Positions 1 through 36,313 are shown, counted from the stretch's first letter. The stretch is DNA of 64,000 nucleotides from Candidatus Magasanikbacteria bacterium CG_4_10_14_0_2_um_filter_33_14 (GCA_002793035.1 PFPL01000045.1:9669-73668), one strand, 5' to 3'. Translations and numbers: made by a program. The notes: a model not told the origin generated them from the sequence alone.

Positions 1-370
1 ATGATAAAACAAAGATTATATAGTAATGCCGTCTAATAATTTCTTTCATTGTCAAATTCCTCAAGAAACTTTTTGAGGAATCTATCAAAAAAAGAAAAAT
101 AAATATCAAAAAACTGTACACAAAACTGTAGATAAACATCAAATAAGACTGTTAACAATAAAAATTAAATACACAGTGAATCCACAGAAAAAATGAACAA
201 AAAAAGTTATCCAAAATCAACCAACATTTTACAACACACATTATAAACAACTACCAACAACAAATTATTGCTCAACAAAAACAAAATAACCACTTTTCCA
301 CTCTGTACACAGGCCCTATAGTTTACTACTGGTTATATAAATATATATATACTAATAAAACAACAAACAT

Positions 371-6487: not shown

Positions 6488-6562
6488 TGGAGGTACCGGC
6501 GAGAATCGAACTCACGAATAGAGGTTTTGCAGACCCCTGCCTTACCGCTTGGCTACGGTACC
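6488..6562 (-). tRNA. tRNA-Cys (GCA)
   Basis: Manual cloverleaf: acceptor GGTACCG/CGGTACC, D-arm GCC/GGC, anticodon loop CTGCAAA (GCA), T-arm GTGAG-TTCGATT-CTCGC, discriminator T, CCA encoded. Confidence 0.85.
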
Positions 6563-6827
6563 ATAATATTTTTTACCCAGCTATGATAACACAAAATCTT
6601 TTTAATTTCAATAGTTTACAATTTGTAAAGATAATCTTAACAAAAAGTTATATACATGTTATAGTATGCTGTTCCGTTTTATACGGATAAGTACATTACA
6701 AAAGATAGTTTTAGTGGAGTTTTTTGTCGGTAGGGGATTTTTGTTTCTTTTTTTAAGATATAGAAATCCCCATTCCGACAGGATAATTCTGTTCGGATTT
6801 TACTTTCCAGGGGGAAAGGAGTTTGCC

Positions 6828-7889
6828 GTGATTCTCAATTTCCGTTTCTTGAGCACTCTCGTGCTCATGGCGTTCTTCGTCCTCGTCTCGGCTTGCCGAT
6901 CGGGTGAAGAGGATACTTTCAACAAAGAACTGCTGAGCAACTCGGCTACGGTCGTCAAGCAGCCAAAACCTCAGTGGGGAGGCGCCAAGGAAGACCGCGA
7001 CCAGTGGGGTGAGAGCTCCAAGCCGGAGATGGTTGAGTGCCCTCTCGACCACAATAACCGGTTCAATAAACATTGGGATATGGTGTCCTCTGACACTTGT
7101 CTGGCGCGTGTTCGTCATTCTTCCCCCTCCTACCTCAAGCTACAGCAGGAGAACGACGAGCGTGTCAAGTTGGAGGCACAGCAGAAGACTCATGAAGAGC
7201 ATGAGAAGGCTCGTCGCATCGAAGAAAGGAAGGTGCTCGTAGAGCGTCTCAAGACTTGCTTCGACAAGGAAGATAGTCGTCCTCAGTGGCGACAGGATGT
7301 CGAGTTTGGACTTCGTGCCAAGGACGTTCTTCTCGAGGTGCAGTACGACGACTACGTCGACAGCAAGGTCTATCCCTGCTATGACGACGCGAGGCTCTGC
7401 GTCAAGGATGTCGAGGGCTGTGAGCTCGTCGAGCAGTCCAAGAAGTACAACCTCGAGCGAGACAAGAACTTCGTCGCGCTTATTTGGAAGATTCTCAACT
7501 CCAAGGAGGAGATCGCTCCCCGACAGTTCTGTTGGGATGGATGCTCGGTCTTCTCGCGTGGTGATCTCGCTCGTAAGACGATGGTTGTCATGGAGAAGTA
7601 CGGGTGGACGCCTGAGGACTTCGGCTCCAAGACCGATGACTTCGTGGTGGCCATCAAGAAGAGTTATCAAGAGGCCTTCAAGTTCGCCACCCAGGACATT
7701 GAAGTCGTCTTCAAATGCAAAAAGGACGACCAGGAGGGAGTATTCCTCGACGAGGATTGTCAGTTTCTCGAAACTGAGCAATCCGATGTTTTGTCGGCTC
7801 TCTGTGACGAGTTCTTGAGAACGGCTTCCTTTGCTGGGCTGACCTCTGAGCAGATCAGCAAGCTCCATTGTGAGGGTTTTGACGAGTAG
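6828..7889 (+). CDS. GC-rich, cysteine-rich, acidic putative lipoprotein (compositionally foreign)
   Basis: GTG start preceded by GGGGAAAGGAG; signal peptide ending in lipobox LVSAC; about 14 Cys; coiled-coil segment. GC content clearly far above the flanks by eye (codons ctc/gtc/gac/aag). The overlapping ORFs on the other strand and frame are GC-rich artefacts. Confidence 0.55.
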   Translation: MILNFRFLSTLVLMAFFVLVSACRSGEEDTFNKELLSNSATVVKQPKPQWGGAKEDRDQWGESSKPEMVECPLDHNNRFNKHWDMVSSDTCLARVRHSSPSYLKLQQENDERVKLEAQQKTHEEHEKARRIEERKVLVERLKTCFDKEDSRPQWRQDVEFGLRAKDVLLEVQYDDYVDSKVYPCYDDARLCVKDVEGCELVEQSKKYNLERDKNFVALIWKILNSKEEIAPRQFCWDGCSVFSRGDLARKTMVVMEKYGWTPEDFGSKTDDFVVAIKKSYQEAFKFATQDIEVVFKCKKDDQEGVFLDEDCQFLETEQSDVLSALCDEFLRTASFAGLTSEQISKLHCEGFDE

Positions 7890-8126
7890 ATCGTCGACAT
7901 TCTCCATCTAGACTATCTTTTGGAGGGGAGAACGGTAAACAGTGTAATATCTGTCCCGTTTTCCCATTCCATTCGACTATCTTTTTTATAAATTAGAAAA
8001 GATTGAGAAACAAAAAACTGCCTTAAAAAAGACGGTTTTTTGTTTTAGAGTAATTATTTTCTTTGAATTATTATGTCAATAAAAGGTTGAAAAATATCTT
8101 AAAATGAGTTATACTGCATCTCACTT

Positions 8127-20286: not shown

Positions 20287-20371
20287 ATTATTTTATTGTT
20301 TTTATAGGAAAATTATATAATAATTTAGCTAAAAAGGCAAGAGGGGAAGTTTTATTTTTAATTTTGGCAAA

Positions 20372-20640
20372 AAAAAAGAGGCAAACCGTGGCCCAAATAG
20401 AATTTAGTGGCTGGTGCCTCTAGTAATCCCAATGTGCCGGTATTGTCCAAGCTTCTTAAATACTTTAATTTCTTAAAATACTTAAATAGCTTGGAAAATG
20501 CCAGGTAAAACCTGGGATTTTATAGCTTTGACCGCTCGCTGGTGGAAGCCTCTGACAAGTTTCTGTTTAGGAACGCTTGTTATGGTAGAGGACACCTGTT
20601 AAACTTTTGTGTTTGTTTTTGGACATTCTCCGAAGAGATT
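20372..20640 (+). ncRNA. GC-rich structured RNA candidate, possibly RNase P RNA (rnpB)
   Basis: A GC-rich island in AT-rich context with no ORF. UGCCAGGUAAAACCUGGG resembles the E. coli RNase P segment UGCCAGGUAACGCCUGGG. GUAUUGUCCAAGC (P4 5' strand-like, cf. AAAGUCCGGGC) is complementary to the downstream UUUUUGGACAUUC (P4 3' strand-like). The conserved ACAGARA was not found, so the call is weak. Confidence 0.3.
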
Positions 20641-20851
20641 GTCTGGGTGCAAGCAGTGCTCTAAGCTGTGAGAGAGATTCCCACGTGTGTCTTCTTACCG
20701 TATATCTCTGATATCCGTTATCGAAGTCTTCATGTTGGAAACTCTTTTGTAATGTTCACAAATATATTATACCATTTTTTTCACTATTTGTCAATAGTGC
20801 GGGGTTATTGGCTTAGTTTAGCGTAAAAATAGTATATATTAGCCAAAAAAA

Positions 20852-20871
20852 TGTATAAACTAGTCTATACA
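20852..20871. repeat. dyad-symmetric motif copy 1 (TGTATAnnnnnnnnTATACA)
   Basis: tgtataaactagtctataca. Confidence 0.5.
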
Positions 20872-20891
20872 ATGTTAAAAAGAATGATAAC

Positions 20892-20932
20892 TTGTCCACA
20901 AAAGCGAAGAGTTTTCCACAGCTTTATCCACA
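20892..20932 (+). promoter_or_regulatory. cluster of three co-oriented DnaA boxes
   Basis: TTGTCCACA (20892-20900), TTTTCCACA (20913-20921), TTATCCACA (20924-20932, perfect consensus); a fourth TTGTCCACA lies at 21224-21232. Confidence 0.45.
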
Positions 20933-20933
20933 A

Positions 20934-20953
20934 TGTATAGGATAATCTATACA
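20934..20953. repeat. dyad motif copy 2
   Basis: tgtataggataatctataca, abutting the perfect DnaA box. Confidence 0.5.
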
Positions 20954-21079
20954 AAAACTAGTTTTCACTTGTGAAAAAACAGTGGATTTGTTGTGACTTG
21001 TTGTATTTTCAAATAGCTTGATCTATGTTTTTTGTGTGTAATACATCTTTTTATTGTTGTTCCCTAAGATTATGTACAA

Positions 21080-21099
21080 TGTATAGGAAAGTCTATACA
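21080..21099. repeat. dyad motif copy 3
   Basis: tgtataggaaagtctataca. Confidence 0.5.
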
Positions 21100-21234
21100 A
21101 ATATCAATATTCATTATGTTTGGGATTATTTTTTAAAAAATATTTGTATTCTCCAAAAAAGATAGATAAAATTTTTCATAAAATTTGACTGTTATACACA
21201 GTTTTTGAGTCTTTTCCCCAGTATTGTCCACATT

Positions 21235-21254
21235 TGTATAGGTTTTTGTAGACA
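21235..21254. repeat. dyad motif copy 4 (left boundary of the GC-rich islet)
   Basis: tgtataggtttttgtagaca; direct repeat of the copy at 22594-22613. Confidence 0.5.
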
Positions 21255-21385
21255 AATTATATAAAAACATTAACTTATAAAAAAAAACACCAATAAATTG
21301 GTGGGTTTGTAATATTGAATAGTATGTTGTGCAGGTTCCCGCGTCTTCCCTCCTTGTTTTAAGAGTTGACGCGGGTTACCTTGTT

Positions 21386-21864
21386 TTATCCCAAGTAGAG
21401 ACCTCTCTTTTTGAGCTTCTCCAGAGTGGTCCAGCCCTGCTTGAAGGCTCTCTGGGTAAACACCTGCCCTAAGCGTTTCAGCTTGTCGGTATATGGGGTC
21501 CAAGTAGAGCAGCGAACCCTTTCCTCTTCGTTGACACCACGCATGATGTCGAAACTATTGAGGGGTGGGCGTAGAGGTTGAGCAGGATGGTCTCGCCATC
21601 TGCTTTGTTTTCGGGGAGGTGGCCGTGTTCGAAGTAGTCGAGGGCTTCCTCTCAGGTGAGCCACTTTTTCTCCAGTCCGTGCAAGAACCAGCTGATCTGG
21701 TTTGTGCCGAGACGTTGGAAGCTCGGCATGATTTGCCGGAGATCTTCAAGAATTCTCTTGAGGATCTGGAAATCCTCACTAGAAATATTCTCGAGATCAG
21801 AGATCAGCTGCTCGCAGTCTCGCAAGGTGCAAGCCAGCTGTTGATATGTCCTGTCAATTGGCAA
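21386..21864 (-). pseudogene. third gene of the GC-rich islet operon, interrupted by an in-frame TGA and a frameshift
   Basis: TTG start 6 nt after GGAGGA. The 70-aa ORF ends at TGA (21652-21654); same-frame read-through gives a plausible RKPLDYFEHGHLPENKADGETILLNLYAHP. A second frame continues as ...EEERVRCSTWTPYTDKLKRLGQVFTQRAFKQGWTTLEKLKKRGLYLG to 21386. Confidence 0.4.
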
Positions 21865-21866
21865 TT

Positions 21867-22130
21867 TCAGTCCTCCTGGTTGCAGTTGCCTTTGCAGCAG
21901 CAGTTATCTCTTGGGTCGCACTTGTTGCATTTGGAACAGTGCCGGTAATGACAATGTTCACATTTGCAGGTGAAGCGTTCGTCGATGATAGCTCGACAGT
22001 AGAAGCAGGTTGTGAAGTACCATCTCTTTCCACAATTGGGACAAAGACGAGCAGGATAGCCGTCTTTTGTTTCGTCCGATGTGGAAATGTGTCCGCATTC
22101 GCAGACGTATTCGTTGGTCTGTCTGTTCAA
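21867..22130 (-). CDS. cysteine-rich zinc-ribbon-like small protein, paralog 2 (novel family)
   Basis: 87 aa, 17 Cys. Shares with the upstream paralog the pattern CxCG-x9/10-GxPARxC-x2-CxKxWYxTTCFxC-x4-DER-...-CDP-x3-CxCxGxC. GC-rich codon usage. Confidence 0.6.
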   Translation of the reverse strand: MNRQTNEYVCECGHISTSDETKDGYPARLCPNCGKRWYFTTCFYCRAIIDERFTCKCEHCHYRHCSKCNKCDPRDNCCCKGNCNQED

Positions 22131-22249
22131 ATTTGTTTCTCCTTTGTAAGTGGACTTATTTTAAGTATAGCTAGGGAAATTGTTAAATGTCAATTTTTTT
22201 TATAAACAATGAAGCCCTCTTGTATTTCACAAGTGGGCTTTATCATTGA

Positions 22250-22519
22250 TCAGCAGGACCCTTCGCAGGTGCATTCACCTGAAGGATCACAGCTTCCGCA
22301 AGTGGGGCAGTGGAGGTTTTTGCAGACATTACAGACCTTGTTGAGACGTTCGTCTAGATGAGTGTCACAGAGAAAACAGGTAGTATAGTACCAAATTTTC
22401 TCGCAACTAAGACAGCGCCTGGCAGGATTACCATGCTTGTAGTCAGCCGTGGTGTATCCTCCACAGTCGCAAATATTTTTTGGATCAATCTTTTTTGCAG
22501 GACCTTCTCTAACACGCAT
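22250..22519 (-). CDS. cysteine-rich zinc-ribbon-like small protein, paralog 1 (novel family)
   Basis: 89 aa, 16 Cys; RBS AAGGAG 6 nt upstream of ATG; first gene of the minus-strand operon. Confidence 0.6.
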   Translation of the reverse strand: MRVREGPAKKIDPKNICDCGGYTTADYKHGNPARRCLSCEKIWYYTTCFLCDTHLDERLNKVCNVCKNLHCPTCGSCDPSGECTCEGSC

Positions 22520-22559
22520 TTTGTAGCTCCTTCTTGGGAAGTGTCAAAGAGATACTTTT

Positions 22560-22587
22560 AGTATAGTACTTTGACATGTTATGTCAA
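22560..22587 (-). promoter_or_regulatory. near-consensus sigma70-type promoter for the islet operon
   Basis: On the minus strand: TTGACA-N16-TATACT, 39 nt upstream of the ATG. The -35 lies within the palindrome TTGACATAACATGTCAA. Confidence 0.45.
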
Positions 22588-22593
22588 TACTTT

Positions 22594-22613
22594 TGTATAG
22601 ATTGTTGTAGACA
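22594..22613. repeat. dyad motif copy 5 (right boundary of the islet, just upstream of the promoter)
   Basis: tgtatagattgttgtagaca. Confidence 0.5.
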
Positions 22614-22822
22614 AAGTGCATGAAAACATTTAAACATAAAAGTATCAAAACAATATAAATAAAAATAACAATAAAAAATTTATTATAAATATAAGTAAAA
22701 TGTTTTTATAATTTTGTTTTCTTGTTCTGGTATTTCATTGTTTTTATGAAATGAAATTATCAACACCTGCCCAATAATAGTAAAAAATGCTATACTACTT
22801 TTGTAACAATTAATCTTTTTAT

Positions 22823-23755
22823 ATGAATAAAAATATTGAAATCTTGCAAAATTTTAATTTGAAAAACATGCCCAATTTGGATGTGGCTGTGTTGGGAGCT
22901 CTGGAACTTTTTATGTCTGCTAAGTTACCAAAGTACACTGTAAAATTCAAAAAACCTTTGGTAGTTGGTAGTGGTAATGCTGCTGTTACTGGTAAGGTTT
23001 TGTTCTCTGATAGAGAAGCCGTCTTTGCTGACGAGAGTACTTATCTTGAAAAATTAAATACCATAAAGGGAATAGACGGAGCTATTCTTTTTTCTGCTTC
23101 TGGTAGTAAACATGCTATTCCAATTGCTAGAGAGCTAAAGAAACGTGGTATCAAAACTTTTTTAATTACTAACAATGGCAATGCTCCTGCAAAAAGATTT
23201 GTTACATCTGAAAATTTTTTTGTATTTCCAAAAAATCGTGAACCTTATACATATAATACGTCTACTTATATGGGAATGATTTTTGGAAAGACTCATGAAG
23301 AGCCAGAGCATATTTATAATTTTCTTTTGAAGAAAACTAGTAAAGAATTAAAAAAGAATTTTTTGAAATACGATGCTTTTTATTTGTTGATTCCTGAAGA
23401 ATTTTCTGCTATGAGTGAGATGTTTATGACAAAGTTTGATGAAATGTTTCAACCGGTTGTATCTGGTAGAGTTTTTACTATAGAGCAAAGCAAACATGCT
23501 AAGAGCGTTGTCAAAAATGATAAAGAACTTTTTATAAGTTTTGGTTATGAAAATAAGACTTTTGGTTTGGCAAAAAATAGACTAAATATTACTTTACCAA
23601 AACATGTGGATTATGCTGGTTTTATGTCTGTAGTTTATTATGTGATAGGTAATATTCAAGCAAGTCATCCTCCATATTTCAAAAAAGGAATTGTCAGTTA
23701 TTGTAAGAATGCTTCAAAGATTTTTGGGTATGAGATTAAGCCTATCGTAGAATAA
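22823..23755 (+). CDS. hypothetical protein (possible SIS-like sugar-phosphate-binding fold)
   Basis: 310 aa; LVVGSGNAAVTGKV...AILFSASGSKHAIPIARELKKRGIKTFLITNN resembles the SIS domain pattern; weak. Confidence 0.5.
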   Translation: MNKNIEILQNFNLKNMPNLDVAVLGALELFMSAKLPKYTVKFKKPLVVGSGNAAVTGKVLFSDREAVFADESTYLEKLNTIKGIDGAILFSASGSKHAIPIARELKKRGIKTFLITNNGNAPAKRFVTSENFFVFPKNREPYTYNTSTYMGMIFGKTHEEPEHIYNFLLKKTSKELKKNFLKYDAFYLLIPEEFSAMSEMFMTKFDEMFQPVVSGRVFTIEQSKHAKSVVKNDKELFISFGYENKTFGLAKNRLNITLPKHVDYAGFMSVVYYVIGNIQASHPPYFKKGIVSYCKNASKIFGYEIKPIVE

Positions 23756-23895: not shown

Positions 23896-26274
23896 ATGAA
23901 AAAACAAAAACAATTTTTAATTCCCGAAGTCCCAACAATATTTACCATCTTTGGAGCTACGGGAGACTTGATGGAACACAAAATTATTCCATCATTATTT
24001 TTTCTTTACAAACAAAAAAGATTACCAAAACATTTGAAAATTTTGGGCTTTGCGCGTCGTGATCTTAGTCATAAAGATTTTCGCAAAAAAGTATTGTCAG
24101 TTTTGCAAGAAATGAATTTTGTAAAAAATGAAAAACAGGCAGAAAAATTTTTGGAATTTTTTGAATACGTAAGAGGTGATTTTGCTGATGCTAAAAGTTT
24201 TGAAAGTTTGGGAGAAAAAGTAAAAGAAATAGAAGACGTTTGGAAAATTTGTGCTAACAAACTTTATTATTTAGCTGTGCCACCAAACTTCATGTCTGAA
24301 ATTGTGAGTAATTTGAAACGTACCAAACTTAGTGATCCTTGTGGTGGAAATATGGGATGGTCTCGTGTGATTGTGGAAAAACCAATTGGTTATGATAGAA
24401 ATAGTGCACAGGAATTGGAAAAGACATTGTCTATTTTGAAAGATGAACAAGTCTATCGCATTGATCATTATTTTGGTAAAGAAATGGTACAAGGAATTTT
24501 CAATTTTCGTTTTTCCAACAATTTTCTTGAGTCAGATTGGAACAATAAACATATTGAAAAAATTGAAATTAAGTTACTTGAAAGTATTGGCGTAGAAACT
24601 CGTGGAAATTTTTATGATAAAGTTGGTGCTTTGCGTGATGTGGGACAAAATCATTTACTTTCTGTTTTGGCTTTACTTGCCATGGACGATCCTCGTGATG
24701 CAAGTGCTGAAAGTGTGCGTGAGATGCGTGAAAAACTTTTGTCACAAATTACTATCATGAATAGTGAGGAAGTAAAAAAAAATACTTTTCGTGCTCAGTA
24801 CGAAGGTTATGACAATATTGCAGGAGTGGAAAAAAATTCTGAAACAGAAACTTATTTCAAATTGAAATTAAATATTGAATCTTTACGTTGGAGTGATGTA
24901 CCTATATATATTGAAAGTGGTAAGAAGGTTGGTCCTGCCAAAAAAGAAGTAGTAGTCACTTTCAAAGACCGTGAACCTTGTATTTGGTGTCAGCCGACTG
25001 GTCCTGCCAAAAATAAAGTAGTATTTTCTTTTGCACCTAAACAAGAAATAAATATAGATTTTTGGCAACGTAAACCAGGGTTTGAAGATGTACTAGAAAA
25101 ACGGGATTTCAAATTTTTGCTTTATAAAAAACAATCAAAATTTCCTTATGTGGAGGAGTATGCCAAACTTTTTTATGATGCCATACAGGGTCAACAGCGC
25201 TGGTTCATGACACGTGAAGAAGTTTTGCACGAATGGCGTATTGTTGATCCAATACTCAAAGCTTGGGAAAAAAGAAGTGTACCTCTTCATACGTATAAAG
25301 TGGATAATAGAGAAATTGTAGATATTGCTGACGACTTTTTCTTAACTAATGAAAAGAATTTCAAAAAAGAAATTGCTATTATGGGTCTTGGTCGTATGGG
25401 CGGAGGGTTGGCACAAAATTTGTTGGAAAAAGGCTGGAAAGTGGTTGGTCATAATAGAACTTGGGAAGTAACAGAAAAGTTGGAAAGTGTGGGTTTGACT
25501 GGCGCAAAAGAGGTAAAAGAAATGGTGGAAAAATTGATAGCGCCGAGAATAGTGTGGCTTATGTTACCAAACGGTAAACCTGTTGACGAGGCAATTTTTG
25601 ATAAAAAAGACGGGTTAATAAATTATTTAGAAAAAGGTGATATCATAATTGATGGAGGAAATTCTTATTTCAAGGACAGTGTTGAACGTGCTAAAAAATT
25701 GCAAAAATATGGTATTCACTTTCTCGATGCTGGTGTTTCGGGTGGTCCTGGTGGAGCTCGCAAAGGTGCTTGTGTGATGATTGGTGGTGACAAAAAAGTT
25801 TTCGCTAGTATTGAAACTCTTTTCAAAGATATGTCTGTTACCAATGGTTACGAATTTTTCCCTGGTTCTGGTGCTGGACACTTTGTCAAAATGGTTCACA
25901 ATGGAATTGAATATGGTATGATGCAAGCTCTTGGTGAAGGTTTCAATGTCATGAAAAAGTCTAATTACAAACTTGATTTGAAAAAAATCACTAGTGTGTA
26001 TAATAATGGTAGTGTGATTGAGTCCAGACTTGTTGGTTGGCTTTATGATGCTTTTGAAATTTATGGCATTGATCTCAAGAAGATAAGTGGTAAAGTAGAT
26101 AGTAATGGTGAAGGTGCTTGGACAGTAGATACTGCCAAAGCAATGAAATTGAAAGCAAAAGTAATAGAAGAATCTCTAAATTTTCGTAAACAATCACAAA
26201 AAAATCCAGATTATACTGGGCAAGTTGTTTCTGCTTTGCGGGGGCAGTTTGGGCAACACAAAGTAGAAAAGTGA
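23896..26274 (+). CDS. fused glucose-6-phosphate 1-dehydrogenase (Zwf) / 6-phosphogluconate dehydrogenase-like (Gnd) protein
   Basis: 792 aa. The N-terminus has G6PD motifs (FTIFGATGDLMEHKIIP; RIDHYFGKEMVQ). The C-terminal approx 300 aa has the 6PGDH NAD-binding fold (IAIMGLGRMGGGLAQNLLEKGWKVVGHNRT; GGNSYFKDSVERAKKLQKYGIHFLDAGVSGGPGGARKGACVMIGGD). Confidence 0.8.
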   Translation: MKKQKQFLIPEVPTIFTIFGATGDLMEHKIIPSLFFLYKQKRLPKHLKILGFARRDLSHKDFRKKVLSVLQEMNFVKNEKQAEKFLEFFEYVRGDFADAKSFESLGEKVKEIEDVWKICANKLYYLAVPPNFMSEIVSNLKRTKLSDPCGGNMGWSRVIVEKPIGYDRNSAQELEKTLSILKDEQVYRIDHYFGKEMVQGIFNFRFSNNFLESDWNNKHIEKIEIKLLESIGVETRGNFYDKVGALRDVGQNHLLSVLALLAMDDPRDASAESVREMREKLLSQITIMNSEEVKKNTFRAQYEGYDNIAGVEKNSETETYFKLKLNIESLRWSDVPIYIESGKKVGPAKKEVVVTFKDREPCIWCQPTGPAKNKVVFSFAPKQEINIDFWQRKPGFEDVLEKRDFKFLLYKKQSKFPYVEEYAKLFYDAIQGQQRWFMTREEVLHEWRIVDPILKAWEKRSVPLHTYKVDNREIVDIADDFFLTNEKNFKKEIAIMGLGRMGGGLAQNLLEKGWKVVGHNRTWEVTEKLESVGLTGAKEVKEMVEKLIAPRIVWLMLPNGKPVDEAIFDKKDGLINYLEKGDIIIDGGNSYFKDSVERAKKLQKYGIHFLDAGVSGGPGGARKGACVMIGGDKKVFASIETLFKDMSVTNGYEFFPGSGAGHFVKMVHNGIEYGMMQALGEGFNVMKKSNYKLDLKKITSVYNNGSVIESRLVGWLYDAFEIYGIDLKKISGKVDSNGEGAWTVDTAKAMKLKAKVIEESLNFRKQSQKNPDYTGQVVSALRGQFGQHKVEK

Positions 26275-35758: not shown

Positions 35759-36313
35759 TGCGTTCACTTGGGTTCGTCACTATCCTTTTGAGACAGTTTC
35801 TGAAACTCCTCTAATTTCTTTTCCAGTTTCTTGATTCTCTTATTGTCTAGCATTCCTCCTATTCCCAGGAAGATGACAGCTAGCTCGAGTAAGATATGTG
35901 TGAGGGTGTCTGGCACTTTTTACCTTTGCACCCGGGGGGACGTGGGAATCCGGGCGACAGCTGAATTTAGCACATTATTATTATGTCAAGAATTAGAGGT
36001 GAATTTATGGAGTGAAAAAGGTCTGTTTGATTAGTTTCAAAGCTCTTTAAATAAGGCAAACTGACGTTTGCCACTCCTAATTTTTCAAAAAATCTTATTA
36101 ATTAATAAACAAATTAACGAAAAAACCTAAGTTTAGACCTTTTCCTTGACAATTTAGGTCTTTTTTGTTATAGTGTTTTCACCTTTGGTGTTTTGTAAAA
36201 CTTAAAAAATAAGTGTTTTATTTTGAACTTGTTAATAGAAGCTAAAATGTCGAATTTAGCCAAAATTAGCCTTAAAAAAAGACAACATAAAACTTGCAAA
36301 ACAAAAAAAAATT

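What the first reader, a model, noticed from the sequence alone, without database searches (positions are those of the whole stretch)
20852..21260. DnaA-box cluster and repeated dyad motifs in a very AT-rich intergenic block
Four co-oriented DnaA boxes include one perfect TTATCCACA (20924-20932). Three of them lie within 41 bp. They are interleaved with four copies of a TGTATAGG-N4-TCTATACA dyad, each preceded by caa/cca. A stretch of about 90% A+T follows at 21100-21190. This is 20 kb from dnaN, so it is either a DnaA-titration or regulatory site, or an origin or iteron-like region associated with the adjacent foreign islet (plasmid or phage remnant). The alternative is the true oriC displaced from dnaA.
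Basis: seen in the sequence. Interest (0 to 1): 0.55.

Follow-up and report, generated by a model that had tools for sequence, protein, structure and literature searches.

The report
Secondary DnaA-box cluster, not an origin
The DnaA-box and dyad cluster is real and conserved across about 20 lineages of Magasanikbacteria-like CPR bacteria, but it is not the replication origin: it is a second DnaA-assembly site about 20 kb from the true origin, tied to the promoter of an undescribed structured small RNA gene.

Summary
There are five co-oriented DnaA boxes with at most one mismatch, including a perfect TTATCCACA at 20924. There are also four dyads of the form TGTATA-N8-TATACA, plus a fifth at 22594. 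This clustering is far beyond chance.

The organism is a Candidatus Magasanikbacteria bacterium (CPR). Third-codon GC skew flips at dnaA/dnaN, not at 21 kb. A conserved unit of tandem boxes, GGCC, CTA and an AT run lies just upstream of dnaN. The chromosomal origin is therefore at dnaA.

The GC-rich islet is an optional cassette that is absent in close relatives, so the cluster does not belong to it.

The cluster has a near-fixed layout in 22 lineages. Relative to box 3, the forward boxes sit at -32, -12 and 0. A dyad follows at +10, and reverse boxes often sit at +45 and +57. A second dyad lies at about -71 or -81. A consensus promoter lies at about -157 to -180 and drives a roughly 390-nt structured RNA with no Rfam match. 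That RNA is followed by dksA-like, lspA and usually comM. The right-hand neighbour varies.

In four lineages the cluster lies 18-26 kb from dnaN.

Best reading: a secondary DnaA-box cluster that works like B. subtilis DBCs or E. coli datA, with an unknown dyad-binding partner. DnaA binding itself is inferred, not shown.

The parts
20368..20759 (-). Gene for a structured small RNA of about 390 nt, not in Rfam. It is the invariant left neighbour of the cluster. The start site is inferred at about 20759, and the 3' end is a long stem plus U-run ending at about 20368.
   Evidence: Eight species align. Of 81 pairs, 95.8% of cells are paired. 21 pairs change on both sides, against 8.9+/-2.2 in shuffles (0/500 reach it) and 1-5 in slid controls. 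Invariant G-U pairs fit only the minus strand. No Rfam match at E<=1 or E<=0.5. No tmRNA was found. The same RNA type is recognisable in distant lineages.
20766..20794 (-). Consensus sigma-70 promoter of the small RNA: -35 TTGACA (20794-20789), 17-bp spacer, -10 TATAAT (20771-20766).
   Evidence: Read from the sequence. Present in all 26 loci examined (about 22 distinct lineages), 124-180 bp left of box 3; 124 is a variant with a 32-bp deletion. Invariant in alignment A2.
20808..20850 (+). TTGGCTTAGTTTAGCG ... TTAGCCAAAAAA repeats between the promoter and dyad 1. Function unknown.
   Evidence: Conserved in relatives. Similar TT[AG]GC-N5-TTAGC motifs occur in the yidD-rnpA spacer and upstream of dnaA.
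20852..20871 (.). Dyad 1, TGTATAAACTAGTCTATACA. Centre at about -102 from the inferred RNA start.
   Evidence: Found in most lineages at -71/-72 or -81/-82 from box 3, with single cases at -60 and -68 and a -39 deletion variant.
20892..20900 (+). DnaA box 1, TTGTCCACA (offset -32).
   Evidence: A box with at most 2 mismatches sits at this offset in 21 of 22 lineages, amid unconserved spacer.
20912..20920 (+). DnaA box 2, TTTTCCACA (offset -12).
   Evidence: Present in 22 of 22 lineages.
20924..20932 (+). DnaA box 3, perfect TTATCCACA (offset 0). Likely the nucleating high-affinity site.
   Evidence: Perfect in all 7 species that carry the cluster among those found through a neighbouring protein, where the box was not part of the search.
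20934..20953 (.). Dyad 2, TGTATAGGATAATCTATACA, starting 1 bp after box 3.
20970..20989 (-). Two reverse-oriented DnaA-box-like sites: TGTGAAAAA at 20970-20978 (2 mismatches) and AGTGGATTT at 20981-20989 (3 mismatches). They face the forward boxes across dyad 2.
   Evidence: Reverse boxes with at most 2 mismatches occur at +45/46 in 15 of 22 lineages. They occur at +57/58 in 10 of 21 lineages with enough flank (one contig ends too early). The background rate is 0.019 per position. One lineage (L107) has five at 10-12 bp spacing.
21070..21099 (+). Extra partial module specific to this species: decayed box TTATGTACA plus perfect dyad 3, TGTATAGGAAAGTCTATACA.
   Evidence: It is 80% identical to 20924-20967, 146 bp away. 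Relatives have no counterpart.
21192..21254 (+). Module B: TTATACACA (21192), TTTTCCCCA (21212), TTGTCCACA (21224) and dyad 4 (21235-21254). The box spacing of 20 and 12 bp matches module A. Dyad 4 overlaps a possible rightward promoter, TTGTAT-17-TTATAT.
   Evidence: A second box-plus-dyad lies at +134 to +190 in most lineages. It is lost in L014.
21230..21282 (+). Left copy of a 53-nt direct repeat that brackets the islet.
   Evidence: 79% identical to 22589-22641.
21283..22588 (-). Optional GC-rich cassette (54% A+T). It carries Cys-rich small ORFs, for example 22250-22519 (89 aa) and 21867-22130 (87 aa), then frame-disrupted sequence. It has its own promoter and a terminator (21283-21310). 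It is not part of the cluster.
   Evidence: no Pfam match. Absent in L014, L016 and L018. A shorter version is present in L022, L105 and L108, and a cassette carrying the same gene in L125.
22589..22641 (+). Right copy of the 53-nt repeat, with dyad 5 (22594-22613). The dyad sits just upstream of the -35 of the Cys-rich gene's promoter.
294..362 (+). Context, not part of the cluster: the likely unwinding module of the true oriC. It reads TTTTCCACT-c-TGTACACA, GGCC, CTA..., then an AT run ending 8 bp before dnaN.
   Evidence: The same unit is conserved in L136, L138 and L140. The skew switch falls here.

Best explanation
This is a secondary DnaA-box cluster outside oriC. It is a conserved place where the initiator DnaA assembles without starting replication.

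Anatomy, which the sequence shows directly:
- Three co-oriented boxes with starts 20 and 12 bp apart end 1 bp before a 20-bp dyad, TGTATA-N8-TATACA.
- One or two (in one lineage five) reverse-oriented boxes lie beyond the dyad, so the box arrays point at each other across it.
- A second dyad lies 71 or 81 bp to the left.
- A second box-plus-dyad module lies 134-190 bp to the right.
- The whole block sits upstream of a consensus promoter that fires away from it into a structured small RNA of about 390 nt.

Proposed working, which is inferred:
1. DnaA lands on the perfect box 3 and fills the weaker neighbouring boxes cooperatively.
2. An unidentified dimeric protein occupies the dyads and shapes or caps the complex, much as IHF does at E. 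coli datA.
3. The strong outward promoter keeps the region negatively supercoiled, which favours assembly.

The cluster lies about 20 kb from oriC, so it is copied almost at once after initiation and doubles a DnaA sink at that moment. Its occupancy also probably sets the output of the neighbouring small-RNA promoter. In that sense it would work like the B. subtilis DnaA-box clusters, which both restrain initiation and regulate adjacent genes.
For: The cluster is real and non-random.

It is not the origin:
- Third-codon GC skew switches at -2 to +2 kb. A switch at 21 kb fits 2.3 times worse.
- Cumulative skew has its minimum near dnaN.
- A conserved unit of tandem boxes, GC cluster, CTA and AT run lies upstream of dnaN.

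It is conserved:
- Seven species found through the neighbouring PGI-like protein carry it.
- 34 metagenome loci carry box 3 plus the dyad, representing about 20 lineages. Their DksA-like proteins are only 40-89% identical and locus G+C ranges from 36 to 54%.
- Boxes 1 and 2 were not part of the search pattern, yet they are conserved islands in unconserved spacer.
- Reverse boxes recur at +45/46 and +57/58.
- The dyad 1 offset changes in steps of 10-11 bp (60, 71, 81), which suggests helical phasing.

The left neighbour is constant (RNA, dksA-like, lspA) and the right neighbour varies.

It stays near the origin. The distance from the dnaN start to box 3 is 20.6, 18.0, 25.7 and 23.3 kb in four lineages. 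In one of them the whole unit is inverted relative to dnaN.

Precedents: datA has co-oriented boxes, an accessory-protein site between boxes, optimised spacing, a position near oriC and stimulation by supercoiling (PMC5742627). B. subtilis DBCs restrain initiation in a position-dependent way and regulate neighbouring genes (PMC3245932).
Against: - No binding data exist. DnaA occupancy, the dyad-binding protein and any effect on initiation are all inferred.
- The tight link to one promoter, with a free-varying right flank, could mean the only function is local transcription control.
- The boxes lie about 130-175 bp, and the reverse box-like sites about 210-230 bp, upstream of the inferred RNA start. 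That is far for classical promoter control.
- The promoter-to-box distances fall into length classes (157, 167, 170, 177, 180 bp) that are only partly in helical phase.
- Three of the four lineages with a measured distance to the origin share synteny, so they are not independent.
- Module B is dispensable in at least one species (L014).
- Metagenome loci were found with a pattern that forces box 3 and dyad 2 to be exact, so variants were not sampled.
Confidence: 0.5

Rival explanations
1. It is purely a transcription control region. DnaA and a dyad-binding regulator form an upstream complex whose only role is to switch the small-RNA promoter, and perhaps a rightward promoter at module B. It has no meaningful effect on replication control.
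For: - The promoter, dyad 1, boxes and dyad 2 keep a near-fixed layout in 22 lineages, while the right neighbour changes freely.
- Dyad 1 offsets change by whole helical turns.
- Dyad 5 sits just upstream of the -35 of the Cys-rich gene's promoter.
- Dyad 4 overlaps a conserved -35/-10-like pair.
- DnaA is a known transcription factor at box clusters (PMC3245932).
Against: - Eight to ten boxes in opposed arrays, plus a second module 300-360 bp upstream of the start site, is far more than a simple operator needs.
- No box overlaps the -35/-10 of the RNA promoter.
- Module B persists next to right-hand genes that point toward it and so need no promoter there.
- The position near the origin is kept even where the unit is inverted.
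Confidence: 0.28
2. It is a second, minor or conditional chromosomal origin (dual oriC). The AT-rich dyad segment between the converging box arrays is the site that opens, helped by the strong outward promoter.
For: - The box arrays point toward a 36-bp AT-rich segment. This is the polarity expected from the box-to-unwinding-site rule (PMC8287927, combined with the E. coli oriC sequence from my own knowledge).
- A strong promoter fires away from the boxes.
- Box density equals that of the densest cluster near dnaA.
Against: - There is no skew switch at 21 kb. Genes on both strands between 1.6 and 20 kb are mostly positive in third-position skew (11 of 13, mean about +0.2), though somewhat lower than the genes beyond.
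- No run of DnaA-trios follows the boxes in any frame (sequence; rule).
- The AT content is ordinary, and no AT island stands out in relatives with higher G+C.
- A complete origin-type module sits at dnaN.
Confidence: 0.06
3. The dyads are core sites for a site-specific recombinase, or are iteron or operator sites of a mobile element. On this view the cluster is a remnant or attachment region for the cassette next door.
For: - The dyads have 6-7 bp inverted arms around a 6-8 bp spacer, like recombinase core sites.
- The cassette is bracketed by 53-nt repeats that each contain a dyad.
- Cassettes of different size sit at the same point in several lineages.
- A nearby 100-bp segment is inverted between two species.
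Against: - No recombinase, rep or transposase gene occurs in any of the loci.
- The spacers of paired dyads differ (GTTTTT against ATTGTT).
- Dyads 1 and 2 are fixed relative to the DnaA boxes in lineages with no cassette at all.
- The element does not occur on viral contigs beyond a chance match.
Confidence: 0.05

Closest known systems
Bacillus subtilis DnaA-box clusters outside oriC (DBCs; Okumura et al. 2012, PMC3245932)
   Same: Both are dense clusters of near-consensus DnaA boxes in intergenic regions outside oriC and next to promoters. The B. subtilis DBCs restrain initiation in a position-dependent way, and some also regulate neighbouring genes. The element here is likewise near the origin and tied to a promoter.
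   Different: This element has a rigid layout, with boxes 20 and 12 bp apart and opposed arrays. It also has a locus-specific dyad for a second, unknown factor, and sits next to a small-RNA gene. The phylum is different (CPR). No function has been tested here.
Escherichia coli datA (DDAH system; PMC5742627)
   Same: Both have a few co-oriented DnaA boxes with a site for a sequence-specific accessory protein among them. Orientation and spacing are optimised or conserved. Both are non-coding, lie next to an RNA gene (the glyVXY tRNA operon there, a small RNA here), and are close to oriC so that they are copied early.
   Different: The accessory site here is a 20-bp dyad, not an IHF site. Reverse boxes are present, whereas the essential datA boxes all face one way. 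The distance to oriC is about 20 kb rather than about 470 kb. Stimulation of ATP hydrolysis is untested.
Escherichia coli DARS1/DARS2 (PMC6868365)
   Same: Both have a three-box core with oppositely oriented boxes and highly conserved spacing. DARS2 also has accessory-protein sites.
   Different: In the DARS core, boxes I and II face each other across 5 bp. Here the opposed boxes are 36 bp apart with a dyad between them. No IHF or Fis sites are recognisable.
oriC basal unwinding system: tandem DnaA boxes, DnaA-trios and an AT-rich element (PMC8287927)
   Same: Boxes 2 and 3 are tandem and co-oriented with a 3-bp gap, as in the origin module. AT-rich DNA follows.
   Different: There is no GC spacer and no run of trios, because the dyad occupies that position. 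There is no skew switch. The genuine module lies upstream of dnaN.
Iteron-type plasmid origins with DnaA boxes
   Same: Both combine DnaA boxes with repeated protein-binding motifs and AT-rich DNA.
   Different: The repeats here are dyads, not tandem direct iterons. There is no rep gene. The locus is chromosomal and syntenic across many lineages.

Membership tests
Chromosomal origin (oriC) | Replication-strand compositional polarity (GC skew) switches sign at the site | tested here: not met
   Third-codon skew switches at -2 to +2 kb (dnaA/dnaN). It is mostly positive on both sides of 21 kb (11 of 13 genes between 1.6 and 20 kb). A switch at 21 kb fits 2.3 times worse.
Chromosomal origin (oriC) | Tandem DnaA boxes followed by a short spacer, at least 3 DnaA-trios and an AT-rich unwinding element | tested here: not met
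   No frame after box 3 gives a run of trios, because the dyad occupies that position (rule). 21100-21190 is 83.5% A+T, which is unexceptional. A conserved unit of this kind lies upstream of dnaN instead.
Chromosomal origin (oriC) | Cluster of DnaA boxes | tested here: met
   Five boxes with at most 1 mismatch in 341 bp. None of 300 simulations reached even 4.
Secondary DnaA-box cluster (B. subtilis DBC type) | Several near-consensus DnaA boxes within a few hundred bp, in an intergenic region outside oriC | tested here: met
Secondary DnaA-box cluster (B. subtilis DBC type) | Bound by DnaA in vivo; deletion advances initiation | not testable with these tools
   Needs ChIP or genetics. The organism is uncultured.
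datA-like DnaA-inactivating locus | Co-oriented essential boxes with an accessory-protein site among them at conserved spacing | tested here: inconclusive
   Three co-oriented boxes and a dyad at fixed spacing occur in 22 lineages. However, the site is a dyad rather than an IHF site, its binding protein is unknown, and reverse boxes are also present.
datA-like DnaA-inactivating locus | Close to oriC, so that copy number rises right after initiation | tested here: met
   18.0-25.7 kb from the dnaN start in the 4 lineages where both lie on one contig. Three of the four share synteny.
datA-like DnaA-inactivating locus | Stimulates hydrolysis of DnaA-bound ATP | not testable with these tools
   Biochemical assay required.
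DARS (DnaA-reactivating sequence) | Core of three boxes with boxes I and II in opposite orientation, separated by 5 bp | tested here: not met
   The opposed boxes are 36 bp apart (box 3 ends at +8, the reverse box starts at +45) with the dyad between them. The DARS definition is from PMC6868365.
Iteron plasmid or phage origin | Adjacent rep/initiator gene and tandem direct iterons on a mobile replicon | tested here: not met
   No rep-like gene in any locus. The repeats are dyads. The viral collection gave only a chance coding-sequence match on two contigs. The location is syntenic and chromosomal.
Site-specific recombination core or att site | Recombinase gene nearby and identical crossover spacers in partner sites | tested here: not met
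   No recombinase was found. The spacers of dyads 4 and 5 differ at 2 of 6 positions.
DnaA-regulated promoter | DnaA boxes overlapping or close to the -35/-10 or the start site | tested here: inconclusive
   For the RNA promoter the boxes lie at about -133 to -173. For a putative rightward promoter at dyad 4, box 3 of module B ends 1 bp before a -35-like TTGTAT. No transcript data are available.

The most novel reading that the evidence does not exclude
This could be a dedicated replication-control locus of a clade of CPR bacteria, a group with no described DnaA regulators. Converging DnaA arrays would be clamped around a dyad bound by an unknown protein. The locus would be kept within about 25 kb of oriC and wired to the promoter of an undescribed abundant structured RNA. 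That RNA sits next to a DksA-family RNA-polymerase-binding protein gene. The locus would then both buffer or convert DnaA after initiation and report replication status to the transcription machinery through the RNA.
Probability: 0.2. Interest if true: 0.75.

Novelty: new variant of a known kind. Interest (0 to 1): 0.55.

Why it matters
Nothing is known experimentally about how ultra-small CPR/Patescibacteria cells time replication. No homologues of the classic E. coli or Bacillus control proteins were examined here.

This locus gives a concrete and testable handle:
- A short DNA fragment with a fixed grammar: three boxes, a dyad and reverse boxes.
- A specific bait, the dyad, for finding a new DNA-binding partner of DnaA.
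- An adjacent new structured RNA whose expression can be followed in metatranscriptomes.

The work also corrects the tempting misreading that any dense DnaA-box cluster is an origin. Finally, it supplies the likely true unwinding module of this clade's oriC, just upstream of dnaN.

Tried and rejected
- Rfam at gathering and at permissive thresholds, on the window and nine relatives. Nothing matched the RNA except chance miRNA hairpins. ARAGORN found no tmRNA.
- By eye and from my own knowledge I compared the RNA with RNase P, tmRNA, SRP, 6S and T-box features. None fits. This was not a formal test.
- Pfam on the islet ORFs and on the extra segment in L031, and NCBIfam on one islet ORF: no families.
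- Viral-contig scan for box plus dyad. It returned the same chance match inside coding DNA on two contigs.
- K-mer search for vocabulary shared between the three spacers near dnaA and the cluster. Only the DnaA-box core is shared. CTGTACAC is specific to the dnaA spacers and the dyad is specific to the cluster.
- A TT[AG]GC-N5-TTAGC motif looked shared between origin-region spacers and the cluster. It also occurs at 36256 in the opposite orientation relative to a promoter. I left it unexplained.
- DnaA-trio search after box 3 in all three frames: none.
- From memory I compared the dyad with LexA, NrdR, parS, CIRCE, dif, IHF and C-protein operators. None has TGTATA-N8-TATACA. These are leads rejected by inspection, not database tests.
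- I tested whether the dyad could itself be a promoter. The 9-bp gap between the -35-like and -10-like parts is too short.
- Helical phasing between the promoter and the boxes is only partly regular (157/167/177 against 170/180 bp), so I do not lean on it.
- nhmmer with the eight-species RNA alignment finds the RNA only in the closer lineages. Distant ones were recognised by shared motifs on inspection. I did not build a covariance model.

Full report
**What is in the sequence**

- Five + strand DnaA boxes match TTATCCACA with at most one mismatch: 20892, 20912, 20924 (perfect), 21192 and 21224. A two-mismatch box lies at 21212.
- TGTATA-N8-TATACA dyads lie at 20852, 20934 and 21080.
- The boxes form two homologous modules, A (20892-20953) and B (21192-21254). 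In each, box starts are 20 and 12 bp apart and the last box abuts a dyad.
- A decayed third copy lies at 21070-21099.
- None of 300 Markov simulations of the window reached 3 co-oriented boxes in 41 bp or 4 in 350 bp.
- The dyad occurs at N8 spacing 15 times in about 0.6 Mb of non-redundant sequence. It occurs 0-1 times at every other spacing, and always at this locus.
- The stretch described as 90% A+T is 83.5% A+T, which is ordinary for intergenic DNA here.

**Organism and the true origin**

Homologues of the flanking 310-aa protein are named Candidatus Magasanikbacteria, which belongs to CPR/Patescibacteria. An overlapping contig extends the window 9.6 kb leftward. It shows the classic order yidD-rnpA-rpmH, then dnaA-dnaN in the opposite direction.

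Per-gene GC skew at third codon positions, expressed on the + strand, gives a clear picture.
- It is negative for genes upstream of dnaA (8 of 9, on both strands).
- It is near zero for dnaA and dnaN.
- It is positive for most genes of both strands from +1.6 kb to 64 kb (11 of 13 up to 20 kb, mean about +0.2).
- A two-parameter model places the polarity switch at -2 to +2 kb. A switch at 21 kb fits 2.3 times worse.
- Cumulative skew agrees.

A conserved unit lies immediately upstream of dnaN in four lineages. It consists of tandem boxes (TTTTCCACT-c-TGTACACA), a GC cluster (GGCC), CTA, and an AT run. This is the architecture of the basal unwinding system described for bacterial origins (PMC8287927). 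The origin is therefore at dnaA/dnaN, and the cluster at 21 kb lies inside the right replichore.

**The islet is a bystander**

The GC-rich block 21283-22588 encodes Cys-rich small ORFs on the minus strand. It has its own promoter and terminator and no Pfam match. It is bracketed by a 53-nt direct repeat at 79% identity.

Close relatives L014, L016 and L018 lack it entirely but keep the cluster. Others carry a shorter or comparable cassette with the same Cys-rich gene. The cluster is therefore not the origin or iteron region of that cassette.

**Conservation and grammar**

Seven species found through the neighbouring protein carry the cluster. The boxes were not part of that search.

A metagenome scan for box 3 plus dyad 2 returned 34 loci from about 20 distinct lineages. 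Their DksA-like proteins are 40-89% identical to the window's and locus G+C ranges from 36 to 54%.

Stacking 22 lineages on box 3 gives the following layout.
- Box 1 at -32 and box 2 at -12 are conserved islands in otherwise unconserved spacer.
- Dyad 2 lies at +10.
- Reverse-oriented boxes lie at +45/46 (15 of 22) and +57/58 (10 of 21 with enough flank), against a background of 0.019 per position. One lineage has five at a 10-12 bp period.
- Dyad 1 lies at -71/72 or -81/82, once at -60 and once at -68.
- A second box-plus-dyad lies at +134 to +190.
- A consensus TTGACA-17-TATAAT promoter on the opposite strand lies at -156 to -180.

The E. coli oriC sequence (my own knowledge) and the 5'-tail requirement reported in PMC8287927 together give a polarity rule. 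By that rule the forward and reverse arrays both point at the dyad segment. Yet no run of DnaA-trios is present there.

**Linkage**

Every locus with enough flank has a DksA/YteA-family gene and lspA, usually followed by comM, to the left.

The right neighbour is variable. It can be the PGI-like gene, an acetolactate-synthase-like gene, an LTD-domain giant protein, holA-like, efp, a sigma-70 gene or ychF. Some of these point toward the cluster.

Between the promoter and the DksA-like gene lies a conserved RNA of about 390 nt on the minus strand.
- 81 pairs are predicted and 95.8% of cells are paired.
- 21 pairs change on both sides, against 8.9+/-2.2 in shuffles and 1-5 in slid controls.
- It has its own terminator, and the DksA-like gene has a separate promoter downstream of it.
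- It matches no Rfam family.

**Position relative to oriC**

In the four lineages where dnaN and the element share a contig, box 3 lies 20.6, 18.0, 25.7 and 23.3 kb from the dnaN start. In the last lineage the whole unit is inverted relative to dnaN. Orientation relative to the replication fork is therefore not conserved, while proximity is. Three of the four lineages share synteny, so this is suggestive rather than strong evidence.

**Interpretation**

The element is best filed as a secondary DnaA-box cluster.

It works like the B. subtilis DBCs, which restrain initiation in a position-dependent way and regulate neighbouring genes (PMC3245932). It also resembles E. coli datA, which has co-oriented boxes, an accessory-protein site at optimised spacing, a position near oriC, and stimulation by negative supercoiling (PMC5742627).

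It fails the defining arrangement of the DARS core, in which opposed boxes are 5 bp apart (PMC6868365). It also fails the tests for an origin, an iteron replicon and a recombination site.

What is shown: the anatomy, the conservation, the linkage, and that it is not the origin.

What is inferred: that DnaA binds, that a dimeric protein binds the dyads, and that the output is DnaA buffering and/or control of the adjacent RNA promoter.

I cannot separate the purely transcriptional reading from the dual-role reading with sequence data alone. I give them 0.28 and 0.5.

**Verdict**

The element is a new, rigidly organised variant of a known kind of element, in a phylum where replication control is unexplored. 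It comes with an undescribed structured RNA next door. Interest is moderate (0.55).

Noticed in passing
window 20368-20759 (- strand): A structured RNA gene of about 390 nt with a perfect consensus promoter and a long-stem terminator. It has strong covariation support and no Rfam match. It always lies upstream of a DksA/YteA-family gene, which has its own promoter. A conserved A/C-rich single-stranded linker (CAAAAACAAACA...) and an invariant ACUGCUU/GAGCGGU helix stand out.
   Followed up: yes
window 294-362; L136 1177-1249; L138 3930-4000; L140 3925-4000: A conserved unit just upstream of dnaN: tandem DnaA boxes, a GGCC (or ACCC) cluster, CTA/TTA, then a TTATATAAATATATATA run. It is probably the true unwinding module of oriC in this clade.
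   Followed up: partly
L001 6862-7378 (2.3-2.8 kb left of the window start): The yidD-rnpA spacer carries six DnaA boxes, three reverse then three forward, two of them perfect. The same spacer in a relative (L138) has none, so this cluster is species-specific.
   Followed up: partly
window 114, 303; L001 8194: CTGTACAC occurs three times, all on the + strand, and only in the two spacers flanking dnaA. It is absent from the other 73 kb. It may be a variant DnaA box or another origin factor's site. It is not conserved as such in relatives.
   Followed up: partly
window 21283-22588: An optional GC-rich cassette with two paralogous Cys-rich (multi-CxxC) small proteins of 87-89 aa, then frame-disrupted sequence. 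It has no family match. Versions carrying the same gene sit at the same spot in other lineages, always with a dyad-bearing repeat on each side.
   Followed up: partly
L016 6689-6800 vs L018 about 6810-6930: A segment of about 100 bp, flanked by 16-nt inverted repeats (GAACATAAAAACAAAT), is 95% identical between two species but in opposite orientation. The flanks are only about 77% identical. It could be an invertible or mobile mini-element downstream of module B.
   Followed up: partly
window 20808-20850, 36256-36282; L001 7017-7040, 7193-7217, 8203-8219: A recurring TT[AG]GC-N5-TTAGC motif followed by an A-tract. It lies next to DnaA boxes at the cluster, in the yidD-rnpA spacer and upstream of dnaA (also in L138 and L140), but also at one unrelated intergenic site.
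   Followed up: partly
window 22823-23755: A 310-aa protein with no Pfam or NCBIfam match here, though a few homologues carry a SIS domain. It lies upstream of a G6PD gene and has 55-60% identical homologues in DPANN archaea (Woesearchaeota, Nanoarchaeota). It is probably a sugar-phosphate isomerase exchanged between CPR and DPANN.
   Followed up: no
window 23896-26274: A single 792-aa ORF fuses glucose-6-phosphate dehydrogenase and 6-phosphogluconate dehydrogenase domains.
   Followed up: no
window 6488-7907: A 51% G+C block with overlapping ORFs on both strands lies next to tRNA-Cys, in a genome of about 33% G+C. Gene calls for this region differ in one other sample (L004), which suggests either a strain-variable insertion at the tRNA or ambiguous gene calling.
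   Followed up: no
L031 2450-3750; L116 +351 to +1328 from box 3: In one lineage a GC-rich segment of about 1.3 kb, with long ORFs on both strands and no family match, sits between module B and the PGI-like gene. It is preceded by a TTGACA-17-TATGTT promoter.
   Followed up: no
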